From Candidatus Woesearchaeota archaeon (GTDB lineage Archaea; Nanobdellota; Nanobdellia; SCGC-AAA011-G17; ARS1178), in the NCBI GenBank assembly GCA_964367025.1, contig CAYIWE010000001.1, positions 1 through 38,157 of the forward strand: a stretch of 38,157 nt of DNA, given 5' to 3'. The translations under genes were made by a program, and so were the position numbers. The notes under the pieces were generated by a model. The model saw only the letters and a list, made by a program, of their open reading frames with translations, made no database searches and was not told the DNA's origin. Positions 162 to 34,477 of the stretch are shown here, piece by piece. Position 1 is the stretch's first letter, and every line of letters starts with the position of its first letter.

Positions 162-1403
162 TTGAGTTATAAACCTAAGAATTCTGATTTAATATGTTTG
201 TTTAGAATTGAGCCTGCTAAAAGTATAAGTTTAAAGGAAGCTGCTGGCATGGTTGCTTCTGAATCCAGTAATGGAACATGGACAGAATTAACAACATTAA
301 AAGAACACATAAGGAAGATAAGAGGAAGAGTTTTTTCTATAAAAAAAGATTATGTAAAAATTGCTTATCCTATTGATTTATTTGAATTAGGTAATATGCC
401 CCAAATAGTGTCTAGTATTGCTGGGAATATTTTTGGAATGAAGGGTGTTAATAATTTAAGACTAGAAGATGTAAAATGGCCTAAGCAGATAATTAAAAGT
501 TTTAGAGGACCCCAATTTGGTGTTGAAGGTATTAGAAAATTCATGAAGATTAAAGAAAGGCCGTTATTGGGTTCTGTTCCTAAACCGAAGGTTGGAATGA
601 ATACTAAAGAACATTGTGATACTGCTTATGATATATGGTATGGTGGTTTAGACTTGTTAAAGGATGATGAAAATTTGAGTAATCAAAAATTTAATAGATT
701 TGAAAAAAGATTAAAAGGTTGTATGAAAATTAGAGATAGAGTGGAGAGAGAAACTGGTGAAAGAAAATCTTATTTGATAAATATTACAAGTGAAACAAAG
801 GAAATGATAAGAAGAGCTAAACTTGTTAAAGATTATGGGAATGAATTTGTTATGGTGGATATATTGACTGCGGGTTTTAGTGGATTTCAAACTATTAGAA
901 GTGAGTGTCAGGATTTAAAATTAGCAATACACGCGCACAGGGCGTTTCATTCAACTTTTACAAGAAATCCAATACATGGAGTTTCAATGTTAGTTGTTGC
1001 TGACATAGCAAGATTAATTGGAGCGGATAATTTACATATTGGGACTGTATTTGGTAAATTAGTTTCTCCTGAGGAAGAGGTGATTAATTTAGAAGACGAG
1101 ATTCAGAAAAAATTTGTGAAAGATGGCAAGAATAGGTTAAGTGAAAATTGGTATGATAAAAAGAGAATGTTTGCTGTTTCTTCTGGCGGTTTATATCCAA
1201 GTTTAATTCCAAAAGTCATTAAGATTTTAGGAAAGGATATAATATTGCAAGTGGGTGGAGGAGTGCACGGACATAGATACGGAACTATGGCTGGAGCAAG
1301 AGCAGTTAGACAAATTGTAGATGCTACAATGAAGGGAATAAACTTAAAAGATTATAGTAAAAACAATAATGAACTGAGAGTAGCATTGAGGCAGTGGGGT
1401 TAA
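162..1403 (+). CDS. rbcL: Ribulose-1,5-bisphosphate carboxylase/oxygenase large subunit, archaeal form III
   Basis: RbcL signature blocks are present: ESSNGTW, AGNIFG, PKPKVG, GGLDLLKDDENL, HAHRAFH, SSGG, QVGGGVHGH. The start is TTG at 162, but homology appears to extend upstream (see finding). Confidence 0.92.
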   Translation: MSYKPKNSDLICLFRIEPAKSISLKEAAGMVASESSNGTWTELTTLKEHIRKIRGRVFSIKKDYVKIAYPIDLFELGNMPQIVSSIAGNIFGMKGVNNLRLEDVKWPKQIIKSFRGPQFGVEGIRKFMKIKERPLLGSVPKPKVGMNTKEHCDTAYDIWYGGLDLLKDDENLSNQKFNRFEKRLKGCMKIRDRVERETGERKSYLINITSETKEMIRRAKLVKDYGNEFVMVDILTAGFSGFQTIRSECQDLKLAIHAHRAFHSTFTRNPIHGVSMLVVADIARLIGADNLHIGTVFGKLVSPEEEVINLEDEIQKKFVKDGKNRLSENWYDKKRMFAVSSGGLYPSLIPKVIKILGKDIILQVGGGVHGHRYGTMAGARAVRQIVDATMKGINLKDYSKNNNELRVALRQWG

Positions 1404-5345: not shown

Positions 5346-6821
5346 GTGAGGTTTAAGGTCAGAGATATTGATATTTCTGCTGGTGATCTTTTTATTGTAC
5401 TTCTTAATAAGAAAGATGCAGATAAATTAAATTTAATAGCCTTGGATAGGGTAAGGATTAGAAATAAAAAAGAGATTATATGTGTAGTTGATATTTATGA
5501 GGGATGGAAAAAAGTTAAAGAGGGCGAAGTTGGTTTATTTGAAGAGGTTCTTAAAGAGATTGGAGTAAGAAATGGTGAAATTGTTGATGTTGTTCCTGTT
5601 GAAAAACCGATAATTTTAGAGTATATAAGAAAAAAATTAGATGGGAAAAACTTGGAAAGAGAAGAGATTAATGGAATTATAAAAAGTATTTTGAAAAATG
5701 AATTAACTGAAATTGAAAGAACTTATTTTGTTTCTGGGTGTTATGTTCATGGTTTAAGCTTAGACGAGAGTTATTATTTAACCATGGCTATTGTGAATAA
5801 CAGTAAAAGATTAGATTTTGGTAAAAAAATCATTGTTGATAAACATTCTATTGGTGGCGTTCCTGGGAATAGAACAACTATGATTGTTGTACCAATATTA
5901 GTAGCAGCTGGTTTAACTGTTCCTAAAACAAGCACAAGAAACATTACAAGTGTTAGCGGCACTAGTGATACTATGGAGGTTTTAGCTAAAGTTGATTTTA
6001 ATGCTAAAGAAATTAAGGAGATAGTTAATAAAGTAGGTGGTTGTATGGTTTGGGGTGGTGCATTGGAATTGGCAAGTGCTGATGACAGATTAATAAAAAT
6101 TGAGAGACCGTTAAGTTTAGACCCAAAGGGTATAATGTTGGCTAGTATAATGGCAAAAAAGAAGTCTGTTGGTGCTACTCATGTGATTATTGATTTGCCT
6201 TTTGGTGAGGGAAGTAAATTAAAAGATATGGGTGAGGCTATCAAATTAAAGAGTAAATTTATAGAATTGGGCGGGAAATTAGGGATTAAAGTTAAAATAA
6301 TGATTAGTGATGGTACACAACCTGTTGGAAATGGTGTTGGACCTTGTTTGGAATCTATTGATGTTTTAAATGTTTTACTGAATAAAGGACCTGAAGATTT
6401 AAAAGAAAAATCAATTAAAATGGCTAGTGATGTTTTTGAAATGTTGGGTTATAAAAATAGCAGAAAAAAAGCTTTGGAAATTTTAGAGAGTGGCAAGGCT
6501 TATGAAGCTATGGAAAGGATAATAAAAGCACAAAAAGGCAAGATATTTAGACCTGAACAAATAAAACTAGGTAAATTTAAATATAATGTAAAGGCTAAAA
6601 CAAAAGGCAGAGTAAAAAGTCTTGATAATAAGTTAATTAATAAAATTGGTATGGTTTTGGGTGCTCCTAGAGATAAAGGGGCTGGTATTTATTTTAATTT
6701 TAAGAAAAATAGTAAAGTTAATAAAAACGACTTATTGTTTACTTTATACTCAAATAGTGAAGAAAAGTTAAAAAATAGTTTAGAGATTTTAGAAAAAAAA
6801 AGTTTTATAAAGATAGAATAA
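5346..6821 (+). CDS. deoA: AMP phosphorylase (archaeal thymidine-phosphorylase-family enzyme of the AMP/RuBisCO pathway)
   Basis: GTG start directly after the preceding stop codon. It has the AMPpase-specific N-terminal domain (MRFKVRDIDISAGDLFIVLLNKKDADKL) plus HSIGGVPGN, PKTSTRNITSVSGTSD, VWGGALELASADD and SLDPKGIMLASIMAKK. Confidence 0.88.
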   Translation: MRFKVRDIDISAGDLFIVLLNKKDADKLNLIALDRVRIRNKKEIICVVDIYEGWKKVKEGEVGLFEEVLKEIGVRNGEIVDVVPVEKPIILEYIRKKLDGKNLEREEINGIIKSILKNELTEIERTYFVSGCYVHGLSLDESYYLTMAIVNNSKRLDFGKKIIVDKHSIGGVPGNRTTMIVVPILVAAGLTVPKTSTRNITSVSGTSDTMEVLAKVDFNAKEIKEIVNKVGGCMVWGGALELASADDRLIKIERPLSLDPKGIMLASIMAKKKSVGATHVIIDLPFGEGSKLKDMGEAIKLKSKFIELGGKLGIKVKIMISDGTQPVGNGVGPCLESIDVLNVLLNKGPEDLKEKSIKMASDVFEMLGYKNSRKKALEILESGKAYEAMERIIKAQKGKIFRPEQIKLGKFKYNVKAKTKGRVKSLDNKLINKIGMVLGAPRDKGAGIYFNFKKNSKVNKNDLLFTLYSNSEEKLKNSLEILEKKSFIKIE

Positions 6822-8867: not shown

Positions 8868-9383
8868 ATGAAAAAGATTTTGTTATTTATTGTATTTTTG
8901 ATTTTAATTCAGATCGTTATAGCTGGTGATATGTATAAAATAGATATTGAAAAAAATGACCAGACTTTTTTTACATTGAAAGAGAGAGATTTGATGAGGT
9001 TTGATTGGAAAGATAAGGAACATAAAATAATGGTAAGACAAATTAATGAAGACAAGAAAAGTGTTGATTTAACAATATATGTGGATGGTGCTCCTACACC
9101 ACAATATGTTAGTGTTTCTCCCACTCGGTTTGTAAAAGTTGATTTTGATTTAGATCGCATTGATGATTTACAAGTAAGGCTTGATTCCATTGAAGGAAGT
9201 AATGTAACTCTTGGATTAACAAAGATTAAAGAGGAGAAGATTAATAGTATAACTGGTAATGCAGTTAAAGACTTAAAAATAGATACTAAAATTGGGTGGA
9301 GTATTGTTGTTGGGATCATTGTTCTAGGATTAGTTGTTTATTCTTTTGTATTAAGAAAGGGTAGAAATAAGGATTTAGAATAA
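8868..9383 (+). CDS. Small secreted protein with a C-terminal TM anchor
   Basis: Signal peptide ILLFIVFLILIQIVIA and C-terminal TM segment WSIVVGIIVLGLVVYSFVL. Its central domain (EHKIMVRQI ... VDL ... VDFDLD) resembles the pre-anchor domain of the 613-aa protein. Confidence 0.62.
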   Translation: MKKILLFIVFLILIQIVIAGDMYKIDIEKNDQTFFTLKERDLMRFDWKDKEHKIMVRQINEDKKSVDLTIYVDGAPTPQYVSVSPTRFVKVDFDLDRIDDLQVRLDSIEGSNVTLGLTKIKEEKINSITGNAVKDLKIDTKIGWSIVVGIIVLGLVVYSFVLRKGRNKDLE

Positions 9384-9417
9384 AGGGGATTTGTGGGTTA
9401 ATTCTTTGGTAAAAATT

Positions 9418-9596
9418 CGCCGAGGCTGGGACTTTCAGACTTTTTAGTGAAGTTTTTTCCTAAAAAAGTTCATTCGAACCCAGATACCCCGAAGGGAACA
9501 GGCTTTCTATCAATCTGGCTCAAGGCTTACACACCCTTTTCCGTGAACGCTTTTCTTAAAAGGGTTCTGCGCAATACCAGATTATGCGACCTCGGC
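9418..9596 (-). tRNA. tRNA-Ser(UGA) with three predicted introns
   Basis: Acceptor stem GCCGAGG/CCUCGGC with discriminator G73. D-arm GCAU-AAUCUGGUA-UUGC. The anticodon arm CAG[intron ~9566-9527]GC-CUUGAG[intron ~9518-9505]A-GCCUG gives stem CAGGC/GCCUG and anticodon UGA. Long variable arm CCC-UUCG-GGG. T-arm CUGGG-UUCGAA[intron ~9472-9432]U-CCCAG. A TATA-like CTTTAAAAATA lies about 25-33 nt upstream. Junctions are accurate to about 2 nt. Confidence 0.68.
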
Positions 9597-9633
9597 ATAA
9601 GAATAAAGAGAATCGCTGTATTTTTAAAGTTTT

Positions 9634-9870
9634 TTATAATTCTATTTCGCCCCAGTTCCATGGCCTATTCAAAATTAGATGTTTGCATTCGCCTTTTAAT
9701 ACATTAATATTTTTGTTTTTTAGTTTATTAAAGTAGTAATCATCCTCTGAGTTATCAATTAAAAGCACTGAATAATTTTCATAAGTTAAATTGTTTATAG
9801 ATTGGGAATATTCTTCTAAACAATATTCTTGATACTTGGAAGTTGGACATCCAACTAAAATTTTAGGTTT
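9634..9870 (-). pseudogene. Start-less fragment resembling the N-terminus of a GT-A-fold (family-2-like) glycosyltransferase
   Basis: Minus-strand frame reads KILVGCPTSKYQEYCLEEYSQSINNLTYENYSVLLIDNSEDDYYFNKLKNKNINVLKGE..., ending at TAA (9636-9634). It has no ATG/GTG/TTG start. The frame overlaps the end of the methyltransferase gene and runs into the tRNA-Ser promoter region. Confidence 0.35.
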
Positions 9871-14430: not shown

Positions 14431-14571
14431 TGGGCCCGGTGAGACTTCCTATAATCTAATGCTGATACAAGCCCTAGTTCTTATGTTCGAACTCACGACC
14501 TTTTGGCCTTAATTTTGTGATTAAGTCCACCATGTCAAGGTGACGTCATAGCCAGACTAGACCACGGGCCC
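14431..14571 (-). tRNA. tRNA-Val(GAC) with two non-canonical introns (variable region and T-loop)
   Basis: Acceptor stem GGGCCCG/CGGGCCC with discriminator A73. D-arm GUCU..UGAC. Anticodon arm UCACC-UUGACAU-GGUGG. A 25-nt insertion (~14525-14501) lies between position 43/44 and GGUC. T-arm GUGAG-UUCGAA[~14485-14445]U-CUCAC. Confidence 0.72.
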
Positions 14572-14574
14572 AAA

Positions 14575-14690
14575 AGCCTCAGGAGGGAGTTGAACCCCCG
14601 ACCTATTGCTTTCTTATTGTTTTTTTGGTGAAACTTTTTACCAAAAAAGGTTTTACAAGGCAATTGCTCTACCAACTGAGCTACTGAGGC
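14575..14690 (-). tRNA. tRNA-Thr(UGU) with a canonical 37/38 intron
   Basis: GCCUCAG-UA-GCUC-AGUUGGUA-GAGC-A-AUUGC-CUUGUA[intron ~14653-14611]A-GCAAU-AGGUC-GGGGG-UUCAACU-CCCUC-CUGAGGC-U. It lies 3 nt upstream of tRNA-Val. Confidence 0.85.
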
Positions 14691-17677: not shown

Positions 17678-17828
17678 AGCCCCGTAGTGTAGCGGTCAAA
17701 TAATCCTACCTCTTTTTTGAATAGGATAGACAAATCATGGTGCCCTTTGGAGGCATCGACGGAGGTTCGAATATAAGGATTGCATCCTTATCAACCTGCA
17801 ATCTTTTAAGGAAATCCTCCCGGGGCTA
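17678..17828 (+). tRNA. tRNA-Gln(UUG) with two non-canonical introns (D-loop and T-loop)
   Basis: Acceptor stem AGCCCCG/CGGGGCU with discriminator A73. D-arm GUGU-AGCGGUCAAA[intron ~17701-17734]UCAU. Anticodon arm GUGCC-CUUUGGA-GGCAU. T-arm GGAGG-UUCGAA[intron ~17772-17814]U-CCUCC. TATA-like TTTTTAAAA lies about 30 nt upstream. Confidence 0.74.
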
Positions 17829-28834: not shown

Positions 28835-31189
28835 TTATGATATCCTAAATCTTAAAATTGCTGCAATTCCGCCCAAATCCCTTAATTGAACGCCTTCTCT
28901 TGATTGAACAGAGATTATTTGTAAATGGGTGTGTGTTTGTTCTGCTAATTCTTCTAATTGATCTACTGAAGATTCTTCCACTGATTCAGAAATTAAGAGT
29001 GTATCTACTGCACCTAATTCCAATGCTTTTTTAACCTCTGTAATACCATAAGCTGTTTTTTCGGGTTCTTTTGAGAGTAATTCAAGAAATTTCCCCATTA
29101 TTTCTTTTTCCTGCATTATCTCTTCTTTTATTAACAAATCCCTGCTTTTCTCAACTAATTCCTGTAAACCAAACTCACCAGTGTAGGATAAATCAAAAAT
29201 ACCTATGATCTTTTCCTTTAATTGATTATTTATAGAGTGACCATCTACAAATTCATTTTTTGTTTGTCCGGGTCCACCCACTATTATTCCTTTTAACTCT
29301 TTCATTGGCAAGAATTCTTTATTTACAATTTCTCCAATCCTTTTATAGAATTCTTTTGCTGCTATTTCTCTTAATGATTCAAAACGTTTTGCTGAATTAT
29401 GGACAATTAGACCGTTTGCTATGAAGTTTTGGTTTTTTACTGAAATATCTACCATTTTTGTTAGTTTGTTTGTTATTTGAATGTCTTTAATTTTTACTGG
29501 AATCAATTGATATTGTAGAATTTTGCTTAATTTATTTTTTAGGTTTTTATTTGTTATTTTATCTAAAATTGATGTTTTAAATGCTTGTTTGCTTATTTTT
29601 CTTTTACCTTGTAAAAACATATTTGCTGTTAAGAAATCTCTATGGATAATATAACCTTCTTGTTCAAGAATTTTTCTTATTTCTGTTCCTAAAGGTATTA
29701 TCTGTCTATTAAAACTTTTATATTGTTTTTTTGATATTTCTTTTATTGCTAATTCTAATTTGTTTTTCTTTTTTGAGTATGTAAATCCTATTTTTTCATT
29801 GAAGATTTTTAAAGAATGTATATCTGAAACGTCTATGGAATATCTTATGTTGTTTGAATAGGGATTTCTTCTATTGTCATAGGTTAATAATGAAGACAGT
29901 ATTCCGAATCTTAATAATACAAATTGCAGTTGTTGTGCAAGTAATTTATTATTTACACCTAAACCTATTCTGTTTCTTGAAACATAACCCTCGGCATCAA
30001 AGAATCCTTTTAAGAATGTTGCAACTATTTTGTTTTTTGATTTTAAGATCTTAGAAGGCATTAAAGATTCTTTTGAAGTAGTAATTTCTGGAAATTCTTT
30101 TTTGAATAATTTAACTAATTCTCTTGAATATGTTCTTATAAGGTAATAATTTTTAGTTTTTCTAAATCTTAATGTTGTATTTATTTTTAAAGCTTTTATT
30201 ATTTTTTCTTGATAGTATTTTGCTATTTCTTTGTCTCTTTCATGAAAATTTAGTCTATCTATTTCATAAGAACCATCACCTAAAAAATAGCCAAGTATTT
30301 GAGCAATATCTTTAGGTAATATTTTATTTCCAAAATTTTGGTTTTCTCCTTTAATTTCTATTTTTTCTGGTATTAATAAATAATCCCCAATTTTTAATTC
30401 CTCTGCTGGTTTTTCTTTAATTATATCTTCTCTTACAAAGAACAAATGGTCTTTTGAAGTCTGAATTTCTGTTCTTGGGTGTTTTGTAATAATCTTGTAA
30501 ACTTGGGATTTTTTAGTTTCCCATTTATCTGTAATTGGAGAATCTTCTATTTGAAAATTTGAAAGGTCTGCTGTTTTTAGAATGTAAGGATTATGGGAAT
30601 CTTTTATTTGAATTATTTCTCCATTGTTTGCTTGTATCAAGGTATCTGGAATAATACACTGACCACCAGCGCGACTCTTTCCTGGAACACCAGAAGTTAG
30701 ATGCGCAATTTCATTTATTTGGGTTCCTTTTAATAAACCAACACACCCATCTCTTCTGTCCATAACAACCAAACCATAAAGTTGTTTGGATTCTATCATT
30801 TCAATTAATGGGTCAAGAACAAAAGTTTGATCACACCTGTAAATTCTAATTTTTAGTGGTTTTGGCGGTTCTATTGAAAAAACTTCGATGTGAACTTTAT
30901 TATCTGATTCCGAAATGTTTCCAGAAAACACTGCTAAACCGTTTTTGGGGGTTTTATCAACTAAACGCAAATGCCTAATCAATCTTTCTAGAGAATCAAT
31001 AACGTGTGTTCTTGTTGCTTTATCTTTTATGTTAGAGGCTGTTCCCTGTTCCTGTGCCAAATGATTTATAATTTTATTTAAATCGTAACCTTCAGGAATA
31101 TAAACAGAGACTAATTCAGTATGCCTTCCTCTAAAAGAAGATAATTCTTTTATGAATTTTTTAAATTTGTATTTTTCTTTTGAATCCAT
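28835..31189 (-). CDS. prf1: Peptide chain release factor aRF1, interrupted by an intein
   Basis: Extein motifs TASNIKD (NIKS region), YRCDQTF (YxCxxxF) and GKSRAGGQ|...|SAKRFESLR (GGQ). The combined extein is 177+186 aa. Confidence 0.9.
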   Translation of the reverse strand: MDSKEKYKFKKFIKELSSFRGRHTELVSVYIPEGYDLNKIINHLAQEQGTASNIKDKATRTHVIDSLERLIRHLRLVDKTPKNGLAVFSGNISESDNKVHIEVFSIEPPKPLKIRIYRCDQTFVLDPLIEMIESKQLYGLVVMDRRDGCVGLLKGTQINEIAHLTSGVPGKSRAGGQCIIPDTLIQANNGEIIQIKDSHNPYILKTADLSNFQIEDSPITDKWETKKSQVYKIITKHPRTEIQTSKDHLFFVREDIIKEKPAEELKIGDYLLIPEKIEIKGENQNFGNKILPKDIAQILGYFLGDGSYEIDRLNFHERDKEIAKYYQEKIIKALKINTTLRFRKTKNYYLIRTYSRELVKLFKKEFPEITTSKESLMPSKILKSKNKIVATFLKGFFDAEGYVSRNRIGLGVNNKLLAQQLQFVLLRFGILSSLLTYDNRRNPYSNNIRYSIDVSDIHSLKIFNEKIGFTYSKKKNKLELAIKEISKKQYKSFNRQIIPLGTEIRKILEQEGYIIHRDFLTANMFLQGKRKISKQAFKTSILDKITNKNLKNKLSKILQYQLIPVKIKDIQITNKLTKMVDISVKNQNFIANGLIVHNSAKRFESLREIAAKEFYKRIGEIVNKEFLPMKELKGIIVGGPGQTKNEFVDGHSINNQLKEKIIGIFDLSYTGEFGLQELVEKSRDLLIKEEIMQEKEIMGKFLELLSKEPEKTAYGITEVKKALELGAVDTLLISESVEESSVDQLEELAEQTHTHLQIISVQSREGVQLRDLGGIAAILRFRIS
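29396..30658 (-). mobile_element. 421-aa intein with a LAGLIDADG homing endonuclease domain, inserted after GGQ of aRF1
   Basis: Cys1 (CIIPDTLIQ) lies directly after GGQ. Block B is TSKDHLFFV. LAGLIDADG motifs are LGYFLGDGS and LKGFFDAEGYV. The C-terminal LIVHN is followed by Ser+1 (SAKRF). The codons were checked at 30658-30656 (TGT), 29398-29396 (AAT) and 29395-29393 (TCA). Confidence 0.85.
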
Positions 31190-34287: not shown

Positions 34288-34477
34288 GGGTCGGTAGCTC
34301 AAAAATAAGAAGAATCTCTTCTATTTGGCAAAGCCTGGGAGAGCACTACGCTGAAGATGATCTCATTGGCATTCCTAATGTCAAAGAGGAAATTTGACAC
34401 GTAGGCGTCGTGGGTTCAAAAATAAGGGTTGCACCCTATCAACCCGCAACTTTTGTTAGAAAATCCCGCCCGACCCA
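34288..34477 (+). tRNA. tRNA-Phe(GAA) with three predicted introns (D-loop, canonical 37/38, T-loop)
   Basis: Acceptor stem GGGUCGG/CCGACCC with discriminator A73. D-arm GCUC-A[intron ~34302-34332]GCCUGGGA-GAGC. Anticodon arm CUACG-CUGAAG[intron ~34357-34398]A-CGUAG. Variable region GCGUC. T-arm GUGGG-UUCAAA[intron ~34421-34463]U-CCCGC. TATA-like TTTAAATA lies about 30 nt upstream. Confidence 0.74.

What the first reader, a model, noticed from the sequence alone, without database searches (positions are those of the whole stretch)
9418..9596. tRNA-Ser(UGA) split by three introns, hidden under a spurious 86-aa ORF
Seen: minus strand 9596 to 9418 reads GCCGAGG-UC-GCAU-AAUCUGGUA-UUGC-G-CAG[40 nt]GC-CUUGAG[14 nt]A-GCCUG-UU-CCCUUCGGGG-UAU-CUGGG-UUCGAA[41 nt]U-CCCAG-CCUCGGC-G. 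Removing the three insertions gives a perfect 7-bp acceptor stem, anticodon stem CAGGC/GCCUG and loop CUUGAGA. It also gives a long variable arm and G73, which are class II serine features. One intron lies inside the anticodon stem (29/30), one at the canonical 37/38 site and one in the T-loop (59/60 or 60/61). Established: multi-intron tRNAs with non-canonical positions are known mainly from Thermoproteales, Korarchaeota and some ARMAN/DPANN lineages. Standard gene callers tend to miss them and call ORFs instead, as the ORF track did here (9447-9707).
Basis: partly seen in the sequence, partly recalled or inferred. Interest (0 to 1): 0.62.

Follow-up and report, generated by a model that had tools for sequence, protein, structure and literature searches.

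The report
Three-intron serine tRNA gene, DPANN archaeon
This is very probably a real serine tRNA gene cut into four pieces by three short archaeal-type introns, in a groundwater nano-archaeon in which all five tRNA genes I found in the window are interrupted this way, which is why standard gene finders miss most of them.

Summary
The minus strand 9596..9418 contains four exons (30, 8, 32 and 14 nt) and three insertions (40, 14 and 41 nt). Joined, the exons give an 84-nt class II tRNA-Ser(UGA) whose lowest-energy fold is a perfect cloverleaf.

ARAGORN and Rfam miss the unspliced gene, and ARAGORN calls the spliced form.

The strongest evidence is comparative. An orthologous locus from another metagenome is 88% identical over 5.3 kb. 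It has all four exons and intron 2 identical, a diverged intron 1, and an unrelated intron 3 at exactly the same site. Other relatives lack one, two or all introns at the same junctions.

- **Introns 1 and 3:** both fit the bulge-helix-bulge register (4-bp helix, two 3-nt bulges).
- **Intron 2:** fits only a relaxed version.
- **The 86-aa ORF:** spurious.

Splicing itself is not shown, because no RNA data exist.

The window also holds four more intron-bearing tRNA genes (Thr, Val, Gln, Phe), giving 11 introns in 5 genes. Two intron sequence families recur at different sites, as in Thermoproteales.

This is a new member of a known kind, and moderately interesting.

The parts
9418..9596 (-). Whole tRNA-Ser(UGA) gene, 179 nt, four exons and three introns. 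No CCA is encoded.
   Evidence: An independent per-run contig of 1291 nt covers 9300-9800 with 0 differences.
9567..9596 (-). Exon 1 (30 nt, tRNA positions 1-29): acceptor 5' strand, D arm, G26 and C27-G29.
   Evidence: Exact 26-nt matches occur in 17 loci from Nanoarchaeota/Woesearchaeota-type genome assemblies. It is invariant in A1.
9527..9566 (-). Intron 1 (40 nt) at 29/30, inside the anticodon stem. It is an HBh'-type motif. The central helix is G24-C27 / GUGU. The bulges are AG^A and AA^G. The intron helix is 8 bp. It belongs to the 'UUCAC' intron family A.
   Evidence: Relatives carry 22-, 29-, 41- and 67-nt introns at the same site, with GUGU or GCGU keeping the helix.
9519..9526 (-). 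Exon 2 (8 nt, GCCUUGAG): positions 30-37 including anticodon U34-G35-A36.
   Evidence: A relative's DNA reads ...GCGC-UGGCCUUGAG-AGCCUG with no intron 1 or 2.
9505..9518 (-). Intron 2 (14 nt, CCAGAUUGAUAGAA) at the canonical 37/38 site, with a relaxed bulge-helix-bulge or bulge-helix-loop motif. The anticodon stem is the outer helix. The central helix is C-G, U-A, U.U, G.A. The 3' bulge is AA^A.
   Evidence: only the 37/38 register puts the 3' bulge against the anticodon stem. The intron is identical in L021 and L023.
9473..9504 (-). Exon 3 (32 nt): A38, anticodon stem 3' strand, variable arm, T stem 5' strand and T loop to A59.
9432..9472 (-). Intron 3 (41 nt) at 59/60 in the T loop, with a full hBHBh' motif. 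The T stem is the outer helix. The central helix is U54-G57 / UGAA. The bulges are AA^U and AG^U. The intron hairpin belongs to family A.
   Evidence: The ortholog L023 has an unrelated 43-nt family-B intron at the same junction.
9418..9431 (-). Exon 4 (14 nt): U60, T stem 3' strand, acceptor 3' strand and discriminator G73.
9619..9628 (-). TTTAAAAATA, an archaeal TATA-box-like element centred about 27 nt upstream of G1. This is inferred, not tested.
   Evidence: Read directly. It is conserved in L023 and partly covered in L021. The assignment rests on established knowledge of archaeal promoters.
9411..9415 (-). T5 run 2 nt after G73, a likely oligo-T transcription stop. This is inferred.
   Evidence: Read directly. 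It is conserved in L023.
9447..9707 (+). 86-aa ORF antisense to the tRNA; spurious.
   Evidence: It has no Pfam family. In the ortholog L023 it is broken into unrelated 55- and 50-aa ORFs, and only the stretch antisense to the conserved exons is kept.

Best explanation
The locus is a functional tRNA-Ser(UGA) gene of a low-G+C DPANN archaeon from groundwater. It resembles Woesearchaeota/Pacearchaeota, which GTDB places in Nanoarchaeota. Three protein-spliced archaeal introns interrupt it at positions 29/30, 37/38 and 59/60.

**Inferred pathway.**
1. A 179-nt precursor is transcribed from a TATA-like box about 27 nt upstream and stops at the oligo-T run.
2. The tRNA splicing endonuclease (EndA) cuts in the 3-nt bulges on either side of a 4-bp helix at each intron.
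3. An RtcB-type ligase joins the four exons.
4. CCA is added.
5. Seryl-tRNA synthetase recognises the long variable arm and G73.

**What is shown.** The exon/intron architecture, the cloverleaf of the joined exons, the bulge-helix-bulge register of introns 1 and 3, and strong purifying selection on the exons while the introns are replaced.

**What is inferred.** Transcription, cleavage, ligation and charging.

**Order of splicing.** The central helix of intron 1 uses G24-C25 of the D stem. The anticodon stem does not exist until intron 1 is removed. Intron 1 therefore probably has to be removed before the site of intron 2 is presented properly.
For: - **Sequence and fold.** The sequence is as described, and the spliced form is called tRNA-Ser(tga). 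Its lowest-energy fold is a cloverleaf.
- **Intron-less relatives.** tRNA-Ser(UGA) genes in L011, L016 and L018 score 57.6-60.9 bits on Rfam tRNA. They align with the spliced sequence at 81-85% identity, with at most a single 1-nt gap in the variable arm.
- **Covariation.** Over 12 Ser tRNAs, 99.3% of cells are paired and 9 pairs change on both sides, including 4 of the 5 anticodon-stem pairs that intron 1 splits. Slid controls give 35-54%.
- **Ortholog L023.** It is 88.4% identical over 5.3 kb. Exons are 84/84 identical and intron 2 is 14/14. Intron 1 has diverged with a compensating C-G to U-A change. Intron 3 is replaced by an unrelated intron at the same junction.
- **Other relatives.** L021 has a different 67-nt intron 1 at the same junction. 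L024 has only a 29-nt intron 1. Contigs in other groundwater runs lack introns 1 and 2, or intron 2 alone.
- **Splice-motif register.** The register table covers 23 introns. For intron 1 the central helix is GCGC/GUGU or GCGC/GCGU. For intron 3 it is UUCG/UGAA, and UUCA/UGAA in relatives.
- **Genomic context.** The window's other four tRNA genes are also interrupted, three of them at 59/60.
- **Assembly.** An independent contig confirms the assembly.
- **Literature.** Sites 29/30 and 59/60 and three-intron tRNAs are known in Archaea (PMC4090602, PMC4033280). Undetected disrupted tRNAs were predicted for DPANN (PMC5829648).
Against: - **No RNA evidence.** No RNA run holds the locus, so no spliced species has been seen.
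- **Intron 2 is weak.** Only 2 Watson-Crick pairs plus U.U and G.A form its central helix. Free-energy folding does not form it.
- **Folding support is modest.** Local junction folds are not unusual against shuffles (z = -1.15, -1.58 and -0.60). The lowest-energy fold for intron 3 leaves a 7x7 internal loop instead of the 4-bp helix. The splice-motif case therefore rests on register and comparison, not on energy.
- **No outer helix for intron 1**.
- **Conflicting assemblies.** Two other assemblies of the same site (L001/L022 and L002) continue after the identical exon 1 and intron 1 as tRNA-Ser(GCU). One of the two versions may therefore be a chimeric join at this 70-nt repeat.
- **Position 37.** Most intron-less relatives have A37, not G37.
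- **Missing context.** The endonuclease of this organism is not in the window. The rest of the genome was not available to check for a second tRNA-Ser(UGA).
Confidence: 0.9

Rival explanations
1. The same gene, but intron 2 is excised one to three bases further 5' (34/35 to 36/37). The mature anticodon loop is then CUUGAAA (A37) instead of CUUGAGA (G37).
For: The intron-less Ser(UGA) genes L011, L016 and L018, and the single-intron gene L024, all have CUUGAAA. One relative's contig reads GCCUU-GAAAGCCUG, which is exactly this alternative join.
Against: Only the 37/38 register places a 3-nt bulge directly against the 5-bp anticodon stem with any central-helix pairs. All the other registers score worse. 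Another relative's contig has the intron-less loop CUUGAGA with the same exon 2 and exon 3 sequence. The 14-nt intron of the sister tRNA-Ser(GCU) fits the 37/38 register with a 4-bp helix. From general knowledge, G37 (m1G) is usual in archaeal tRNAs that read UNN codons.
Confidence: 0.1
2. A decaying tRNA pseudogene riddled with insertions. It is no longer processed to a working tRNA, and another gene supplies tRNA-Ser(UGA).
For: No RNA evidence exists. Intron 2 has a poor splice motif. The rest of the genome was not examined.
Against: The exons are 84/84 identical in an ortholog at 88.4% overall identity, while the introns were replaced. My calculation gives P about 3e-5. Every stem is intact. 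The promoter-like box and T-run are conserved. All five tRNA genes in the window are interrupted in the same way, so interruption is the normal state here.
Confidence: 0.04
3. Assembly chimera. The window joins the 5' part of one serine tRNA gene to the 3' part of another across a shared 70-nt repeat (exon 1 plus intron 1).
For: L001/L022 and L002 come from the same site and have the same upstream methyltransferase gene and identical exon 1 and intron 1. They nevertheless continue as tRNA-Ser(GCU) with a different downstream flank.
Against: A per-run contig of 1291 nt spans 9300-9800 with 0 differences. In another metagenome, L021 links the methyltransferase side to exon 2 (UGA), intron 2 and exon 3. 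L023 links exon 1 through the complete gene to the downstream genes. Because their intron 1 sequences differ, no long repeat exists there. Even if the window were chimeric, the shared part is identical, so the tRNA sequence would not change.
Confidence: 0.04
4. The 86-aa ORF 9447-9707 (+) is a real protein-coding gene and the tRNA-like reading is coincidental.
For: An ORF of that length exists.
Against: The ORF has no Pfam match. It is not conserved as an ORF in the ortholog L023. Conservation falls exactly on the tRNA exons, not on a reading frame. The tRNA evidence above also argues against it.
Confidence: 0.01

Closest known systems
Multi-intron tRNA genes of Thermoproteales (Pyrobaculum, Thermofilum, Caldivirga), reported by Sugahara et al. 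2007/2008 and Fujishima et al. 2010 and summarised in PMC4033280 and PMC4090602
   Same: Both have up to three bulge-helix-bulge introns per gene. Both use non-canonical sites including 29/30 and 59/60. In both, similar intron sequences recur at different sites and in different tRNAs, which has been read as intron transposition.
   Different: The host here is a mesophilic, 30% G+C, ultra-small DPANN archaeon from groundwater, not a hyperthermophilic crenarchaeon. The introns are A/U-rich. The endonuclease type is unknown here, whereas it is (alpha-beta)2 with the crenarchaeal loop in Thermoproteales.
Non-canonical tRNA introns of ARMAN-2 / Micrarchaeota, cut by the epsilon2 endonuclease (PMC3239211, PMC3488258, PMC12397907)
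   Same: Both hosts are in the DPANN superphylum. Both have relaxed motifs (hBH, bulge-helix-loop) at non-canonical positions and require a broad-specificity EndA.
   Different: It is a different DPANN lineage. PMC5829648 suggests that alpha4 enzymes with an 'L3' insert serve Woese-/Pacearchaeota-like lineages. That could not be checked for this organism.
Methanopyrus kandleri pre-tRNA-Glu(UUC) with a D-loop HBh' intron plus a canonical intron (PMC5829648)
   Same: Both combine a canonical intron with an HBh' non-canonical intron in one precursor. In that case the canonical intron was experimentally removed before the non-canonical one.
   Different: There are three introns here. Intron 1 splits the anticodon stem, so the opposite order is expected, with the non-canonical intron removed first.
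Split and permuted tRNA genes (Nanoarchaeum equitans, Caldivirga, Cyanidioschyzon merolae)
   Same: Both are disrupted tRNA genes repaired through bulge-helix-bulge recognition.
   Different: Here all four exons are collinear on one strand within 179 nt. The gene is neither split nor permuted.

Membership tests
Archaeal endonuclease-spliced (bulge-helix-bulge) tRNA intron | Removing the insertion restores a standard cloverleaf tRNA | tested here: met
   Searches show that the lowest-energy fold of the joined exons is a cloverleaf. Covariation supports it. The joined exons are collinear with the Rfam-scored intron-less homologs.
Archaeal endonuclease-spliced (bulge-helix-bulge) tRNA intron | Two 3-nt bulges separated by a 4-bp helix, with the splice site after the second bulge base on each strand, flanked by outer helices (hBHBh') | tested here: met
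   This holds for intron 3 (59/60). The outer helix is the T stem. The central helix is UUCG/UGAA (3 Watson-Crick pairs plus G.U). The bulges are AA^U and AG^U, and the intron forms a helix. The same register holds in L002, L005 and L015 with UUCA/UGAA.
Archaeal endonuclease-spliced (bulge-helix-bulge) tRNA intron | The same motif for intron 1 (29/30) | tested here: met
   The relaxed HBh' form is met. The central helix is GCGC/GUGU, the bulges are AG^A and AA^G, and the intron helix is 8 bp. There is no outer exon helix. The helix is kept as GCGU in L024, L022 and a contig.
Archaeal endonuclease-spliced (bulge-helix-bulge) tRNA intron | The same motif for intron 2 (37/38) | tested here: inconclusive
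   The register and lengths fit: the anticodon stem, the bulge AA^A and 14 = 1+2+3+2+4+2 nt. However, the central helix has only C-G and U-A plus U.U and G.A, and folding does not form it. There is no sequence variation among the orthologs with which to test it.
Archaeal endonuclease-spliced (bulge-helix-bulge) tRNA intron | Cleavage by EndA and ligation by RtcB, producing the mature tRNA and linear or circular introns | not testable with these tools
   No RNA run holds the locus. No endonuclease gene was found among the window's ORFs scanned.
Class II tRNA-Ser | Long variable arm with its own stem, discriminator G73, 3-bp D stem and a serine anticodon | tested here: met
   The variable arm is CCC-UUCG-GGG. 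G73, the D stem GCA/UGC with U13.U22, and anticodon UGA are all present. The body is the same as in Ser(GCU), Ser(GGA) and Ser(UGA) of relatives.
Class II tRNA-Ser | Charged with serine by seryl-tRNA synthetase | not testable with these tools
   This needs biochemistry.
Transposed tRNA-intron families (Thermoproteales type) | Similar intron sequences at different positions and in different tRNA species | tested here: met
   Family A occurs as Ser intron 1 (29/30), Ser intron 3 (59/60) and the Thr intron (37/38). Mean column identity is 74%. The motif occurs at 3 loci against 0.79 expected. Family B occurs in Gln and Phe (59/60), L023 Ser (59/60) and L021 Ser (29/30).
Split or permuted tRNA gene | Exons on separate loci or in permuted order | tested here: not met
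   All exons are collinear on one strand within 179 nt.
Self-splicing group I / group II intron | A ribozyme core of hundreds of nucleotides that matches Rfam intron models | tested here: not met
   The insertions are 14-41 nt. The region has no Rfam hit other than two chance-level matches to unrelated families.

The most novel reading that the evidence does not exclude
Bulge-helix-bulge introns are currently mobile in this DPANN population.

- Two short intron families (A and B) sit at 29/30, 37/38 and 59/60 in different tRNAs.
- Populations only about 12% diverged carry different families at exactly the same junction of otherwise identical exons.
- Two contigs from a single metagenome (L021 and L023) differ in intron 1.

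If this reflects ongoing site-specific intron insertion or exchange, this would be a second, independent and mesophilic natural system for studying the still-unknown mechanism of archaeal tRNA-intron transposition. The alternative is old paralogy plus gene conversion.
Probability: 0.4. Interest if true: 0.65.

Novelty: new member of a known kind. Interest (0 to 1): 0.5.

Why it matters
- **Annotation.** In this window ARAGORN finds none of the five tRNA genes and Rfam finds one. tRNA counts, completeness estimates and codon-usage inferences for Woese-/Pacearchaeota-like genomes will therefore be badly underestimated, and spurious ORFs will be called over tRNA genes.
- **Biology.** This extends extreme tRNA gene disruption from hyperthermophilic Thermoproteales to a mesophilic ultra-small DPANN lineage: 11 introns in 5 genes, and three introns in each of two genes. 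It implies a broad-specificity splicing endonuclease in that lineage.
- **Evolution.** The exons are identical while the introns are swapped at fixed junctions. This is a clean natural illustration that selection acts on the splice motif and the mature tRNA. It also gives concrete material for studying intron gain and turnover.

Tried and rejected
- **Standard finders on the unspliced gene.** ARAGORN on the window and on the unspliced locus, with intron options, found nothing. Rfam at gathering and at E<=10 found no tRNA at the locus.
- **ARAGORN as a test.** ARAGORN alone is a weak test. It accepted hundreds of arbitrary D-loop deletions in the Gln gene. I therefore added a random-deletion control and relied on homologs and covariation instead.
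- **RNA evidence.** No RNA run was available.
- **Free-energy folding of the junctions.** It did not reproduce the 4-bp central helices, and z-scores were unremarkable. I rejected it as a criterion and used register and comparison.
- **D-loop pairing with intron 2.** The 7-8-bp pairing between the D loop (AAUCUGG) and intron 2 (CCAGAUU) dominates the precursor's lowest-energy fold. By my rough estimate such a match has about a 0.1 chance of arising by accident. It is absent from the sister tRNA-Ser(GCU) intron. I left it as unexplained rather than functional.
- **C/D-box guide RNA in the introns.** There is no convincing C box, so I rejected this by inspection.
- **Other positions for intron 2.** All fit worse.
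- **Intron family motifs outside the close relatives.** No copies were found in the more distant genome loci. The single Family A pattern match in L004 was not examined.
- **Exact-match scan of metagenome contigs.** It returned only 4 loci, so there was no deep alignment for intron covariation statistics.

Full report
**1. The observation**

In window coordinates the segments are as follows.

| Segment | Coordinates | Length | Content |
|---|---|---|---|
| Exon 1 | 9596-9567 | 30 nt | |
| Intron 1 | 9566-9527 | 40 nt | |
| Exon 2 | 9526-9519 | 8 nt | GCCUUGAG |
| Intron 2 | 9518-9505 | 14 nt | CCAGAUUGAUAGAA |
| Exon 3 | 9504-9473 | 32 nt | |
| Intron 3 | 9472-9432 | 41 nt | |
| Exon 4 | 9431-9418 | 14 nt | ends in G73 |

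No CCA is encoded.

ARAGORN finds no tRNA anywhere in the window or in the unspliced locus with intron options. Rfam finds nothing at the locus, either at gathering threshold or at E<=10.

ARAGORN calls the 84-nt joined sequence tRNA-Ser(tga). Its minimum-free-energy and centroid structures are a complete cloverleaf (-35.5 kcal/mol, z = -2.4). The cloverleaf has these features:
- a 7-bp acceptor stem;
- a 3-bp D stem;
- a 5-bp anticodon stem;
- a 3-bp variable stem closed by UUCG;
- a 5-bp T stem.

ARAGORN proved permissive, so I ran a control. Random triple deletions of the same three lengths gave a full-length Ser call in 3 of 300 trials. Exons are 61% G+C, against 27-40% in the introns and 30% in the window.

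**2. Where it comes from**

The window is archaeal. It encodes:
- ribosomal proteins S3Ae and S15;
- an S-layer protein;
- SRP54 and FtsY;
- aRF1 with an intein;
- a class I aminoacyl-tRNA synthetase;
- form III-like RuBisCO plus an AMP-phosphorylase-like protein.

The neighbouring methyltransferase gene is found on contigs of a 0.1-µm-filtered groundwater metagenome (Hain_H43). Only groundwater DNA runs hold the locus.

The first 26 nt of the tRNA occur exactly in 17 loci from genome assemblies, most of them labelled Nanoarchaeota or Woesearchaeota. The host is therefore a DPANN archaeon of the Woese-/Pacearchaeota type. This is an inference from gene content and those hits.

**3. Comparative evidence, which is the core of the case**

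*Intron-less relatives.* tRNA-Ser(UGA) genes in L011, L016 and L018 score 57.6-60.9 bits on Rfam's tRNA model, whose threshold is 29. They align with the window's joined exons at 81-85% identity, with at most a single 1-nt gap in the variable arm.

*Covariation.* On an alignment of 12 Ser tRNAs, some natural and intron-less and some spliced in silico, the cloverleaf gives the following:
- 99.3% of cells are paired.
- 9 pairs change on both sides, including 4 of the 5 pairs of the anticodon stem that intron 1 splits.
- No shuffle out of 500 reaches these values.
- Slid controls give 35-54% paired.

*The ortholog L023.* This contig (Ga0209541_10042363) comes from a different metagenome and matches the window at 88.4% identity over 5.3 kb. 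In it:
- All four exons are identical (84/84).
- Intron 2 is identical (14/14).
- Intron 1 is a diverged copy of the same family with a compensating C-G to U-A change in its hairpin.
- Intron 3 is replaced by an unrelated 43-nt intron at exactly the same junction.

Under 88.4% identity, 84 unchanged bases have a probability of about 3e-5.

*Other relatives.*
- L021 comes from the same metagenome and covers the methyltransferase side. It carries a different 67-nt intron 1 at the same junction, followed by identical exon 2, intron 2 and exon 3.
- L024 has a tRNA-Ser(UGA) with only a 29-nt intron at 29/30, and it still scores 39 bits on Rfam.
- Contigs of other groundwater runs include one with neither intron 1 nor intron 2 (...GCGC-UGGCCUUGAG-AGCCUG). 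Another has a 22-nt intron 1 and no intron 2.

The three predicted junctions are thus the places where relatives gain, lose or exchange sequence, while the exons stay fixed.

**4. Splice motifs**

I used the standard register: a 4-nt exonic strand ends two bases before the 5' site, a 4-nt intronic strand ends two bases before the 3' site, and 3-nt bulges flank the helix. I tabulated 23 introns on this basis.

- **Intron 3 (59/60) is a full hBHBh' motif.** The T stem is the outer helix, the central helix is U54-G57/UGAA, the bulges are AA^U and AG^U, and the intron forms a hairpin. The alternative 60/61 placement does not pair, so 59/60 is the site. Relatives with A57 have UUCA/UGAA, which also pairs.
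- **Intron 1 (29/30) is the relaxed HBh' form.** The central helix is G24-C27/GUGU, and GCGU in three other sequences, which turns G.U into G-C. The bulges are AG^A and AA^G, and the intron helix is 8 bp. There is no outer exon helix.
- **Intron 2 (37/38) fits in length and register.** The anticodon stem is the outer helix and the 3' bulge is AA^A. Its central helix, however, is only C-G and U-A plus U.U and G.A. Every other placement is worse.

Free-energy folding does not reproduce the central helices, and junction z-scores are unremarkable. The motif evidence is therefore geometric and comparative, not thermodynamic.

Some relatives have the loop CUUGAAA. An A37 product from a shifted intron 2 therefore remains a minor alternative.

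**5. Likely mechanism**

The pathway below is inferred, apart from the architecture.
1. Transcription starts from the TATA-like TTTAAAAATA (9628-9619) and ends at the T5 run (9415-9411). Both elements are conserved in L023.
2. EndA cuts at the six bulge sites.
3. An RtcB-type ligase joins the exons.
4. CCA is added.
5. Seryl-tRNA synthetase charges the tRNA through the variable arm and G73.

The central helix of intron 1 borrows G24-C25 from the D stem, and the anticodon stem cannot form until intron 1 is removed. Intron 1 should therefore be removed before intron 2 is properly presented.

Non-canonical and relaxed motifs require a broad-specificity endonuclease. For DPANN lineages, alpha4 enzymes with an 'L3' insert have been linked to increased tRNA disruption, and undetected disrupted tRNA genes were explicitly predicted (PMC5829648). 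No endonuclease gene was found among the window's ORFs that I scanned.

**6. Rivals**

- **Pseudogene.** This is contradicted by perfect exon conservation with intron turnover, and by the fact that all tRNA genes in the window are interrupted.
- **Coding ORF.** This is contradicted by the lack of any family match and by loss of the frame in L023.
- **Assembly chimera.** This deserves mention. L001/L022 and L002 come from the same site and share the upstream gene and an identical exon 1 plus intron 1, yet they continue as a three-intron tRNA-Ser(GCU). Against it, a separate 1291-nt per-run contig matches 9300-9800 with no differences. L021 and L023 also support the window's arrangement without a long repeat. 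The shared part is identical in any case.

**7. Comparison with what is known**

- Three-intron tRNAs, the sites 29/30 and 59/60, and intron families shared between sites and tRNAs are established for Thermoproteales (PMC4033280, PMC4090602).
- Relaxed motifs and special endonucleases are known in ARMAN-type DPANN (PMC3239211).

This locus works like those systems. It passes the sequence-level membership tests for introns 1 and 3, and intron 2 is inconclusive. It is a new member of a known kind in a lineage where such genes were expected but remain poorly documented.

**8. Wider context found on the way**

A simple acceptor/T-arm scan and reading of the hits show five tRNA genes in the window, all interrupted.

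| tRNA | Introns |
|---|---|
| Ser(UGA) | 3 |
| Thr(UGU) | 1 |
| Val(GAC) | 2 |
| Gln(UUG) | 2 |
| Phe(GAA) | 3 |

Four of the five have a 41-43-nt intron at 59/60. Two intron sequence families recur:
- Family A (CUUUU...UUCAC...AAAAG) occurs at 29/30, 59/60 and 37/38.
- Family B (AUAAGG.UUGCA.CC.UAUCAACC.GCAA) occurs at 59/60 in Gln and Phe, at 59/60 in the L023 Ser gene and at 29/30 in the L021 Ser gene.

This pattern is the basis of the more novel reading, that these introns are currently mobile in the population.

**9. Verdict**

Splicing has not been observed. Interest is moderate (0.5). The kind is known, but the density of disruption, the failure of standard finders and the population-level intron swapping are worth recording.

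Noticed in passing
window 14431-14571 (-): A hidden tRNA-Val(GAC) with two introns. One is 25 nt in the variable region; the bulge-helix-bulge register favours 43/44, with central helix UGGU/GCCA. The other is 41 nt at 59/60. Both ARAGORN and Rfam miss it. The spliced form is called tRNA-Val(gac). It starts 4 nt after the tRNA-Thr gene.
   Followed up: partly
window 14575-14690 (-): tRNA-Thr(UGU) with one 43-nt canonical intron of family A (central helix CUUG/UAAG). It is the only tRNA in the window that Rfam detects (60.8 bits). ARAGORN misses it.
   Followed up: partly
window 17678-17828 (+): A hidden tRNA-Gln(UUG) with a D-loop intron of about 35 nt, whose boundaries are not resolved, and a 43-nt family-B intron at 59/60. 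Both ARAGORN and Rfam miss it.
   Followed up: partly
window 34288-34477 (+): A hidden tRNA-Phe(GAA) with three introns: one of about 29-31 nt in the D loop, one of about 42 nt at 37/38, and a 43-nt family-B intron at 59/60. Both finders miss it. The D-loop boundaries are not resolved.
   Followed up: partly
window 9432-9472, 9527-9566, 14598-14640; 17766-17808, 34417-34459; L021, L023: Two intron sequence families recur at different tRNA positions and in different tRNAs. They replace one another at the same junction between close relatives. Exon 1 plus the first ~29 nt of intron 1 reach very high depth, up to ~2200x, in other groundwater metagenomes. Loose ends on both sides suggest that the same intron occurs in other exons and the same exon occurs with other introns.
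   Followed up: partly
L001/L022 and L002 (same sampling site as the window): These contigs have the same upstream methyltransferase gene and an identical exon 1 plus intron 1. They continue as a three-intron tRNA-Ser(GCU), with introns at the same three sites, and have a different downstream flank. The cause is either a chimeric join at a 70-nt repeat shared by two Ser genes or a strain difference.
   Followed up: partly
window 9505-9518 versus 9577-9583 (-): Intron 2 (CCAGAUU...) is perfectly complementary to the D loop AAUCUGG of exon 1. This 7-8-bp helix dominates the lowest-energy fold of the precursor. It may be chance (rough estimate ~0.1). The sister tRNA-Ser(GCU) intron lacks it. Intron 2 is nevertheless 14/14 conserved in two orthologous contigs.
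   Followed up: partly
L005 5881-~6000 (+) (Candidatus Woesearchaeota MAG, CALDOJ010000003.1): This tRNA has a serine-type body: the same acceptor and D arm as tRNA-Ser, a long variable arm and G73. Its anticodon loop is CUGAAAC, which gives the phenylalanine anticodon GAA. It also has a 32-nt intron at 59/60. ARAGORN calls the spliced form tRNA-Phe(gaa), 84 nt. It could be a recoding tRNA, a mutant copy or an error.
   Followed up: no
window 28835-31189 (-): The peptide chain release factor aRF1 gene is interrupted by an intein with a LAGLIDADG homing-endonuclease domain.
   Followed up: no
window 162-1403 (+) and 5346-6821 (+): A RuBisCO large subunit and an AMP-phosphorylase-like protein lie close together. 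This is the nucleotide-salvage pair typical of several DPANN lineages.
   Followed up: no
L006 5770-6043 and L016 5726-5998: In two related genomes, the archaeal SRP RNA gene lies close to the tRNA-Ser gene. In L006 the two genes directly abut.
   Followed up: no
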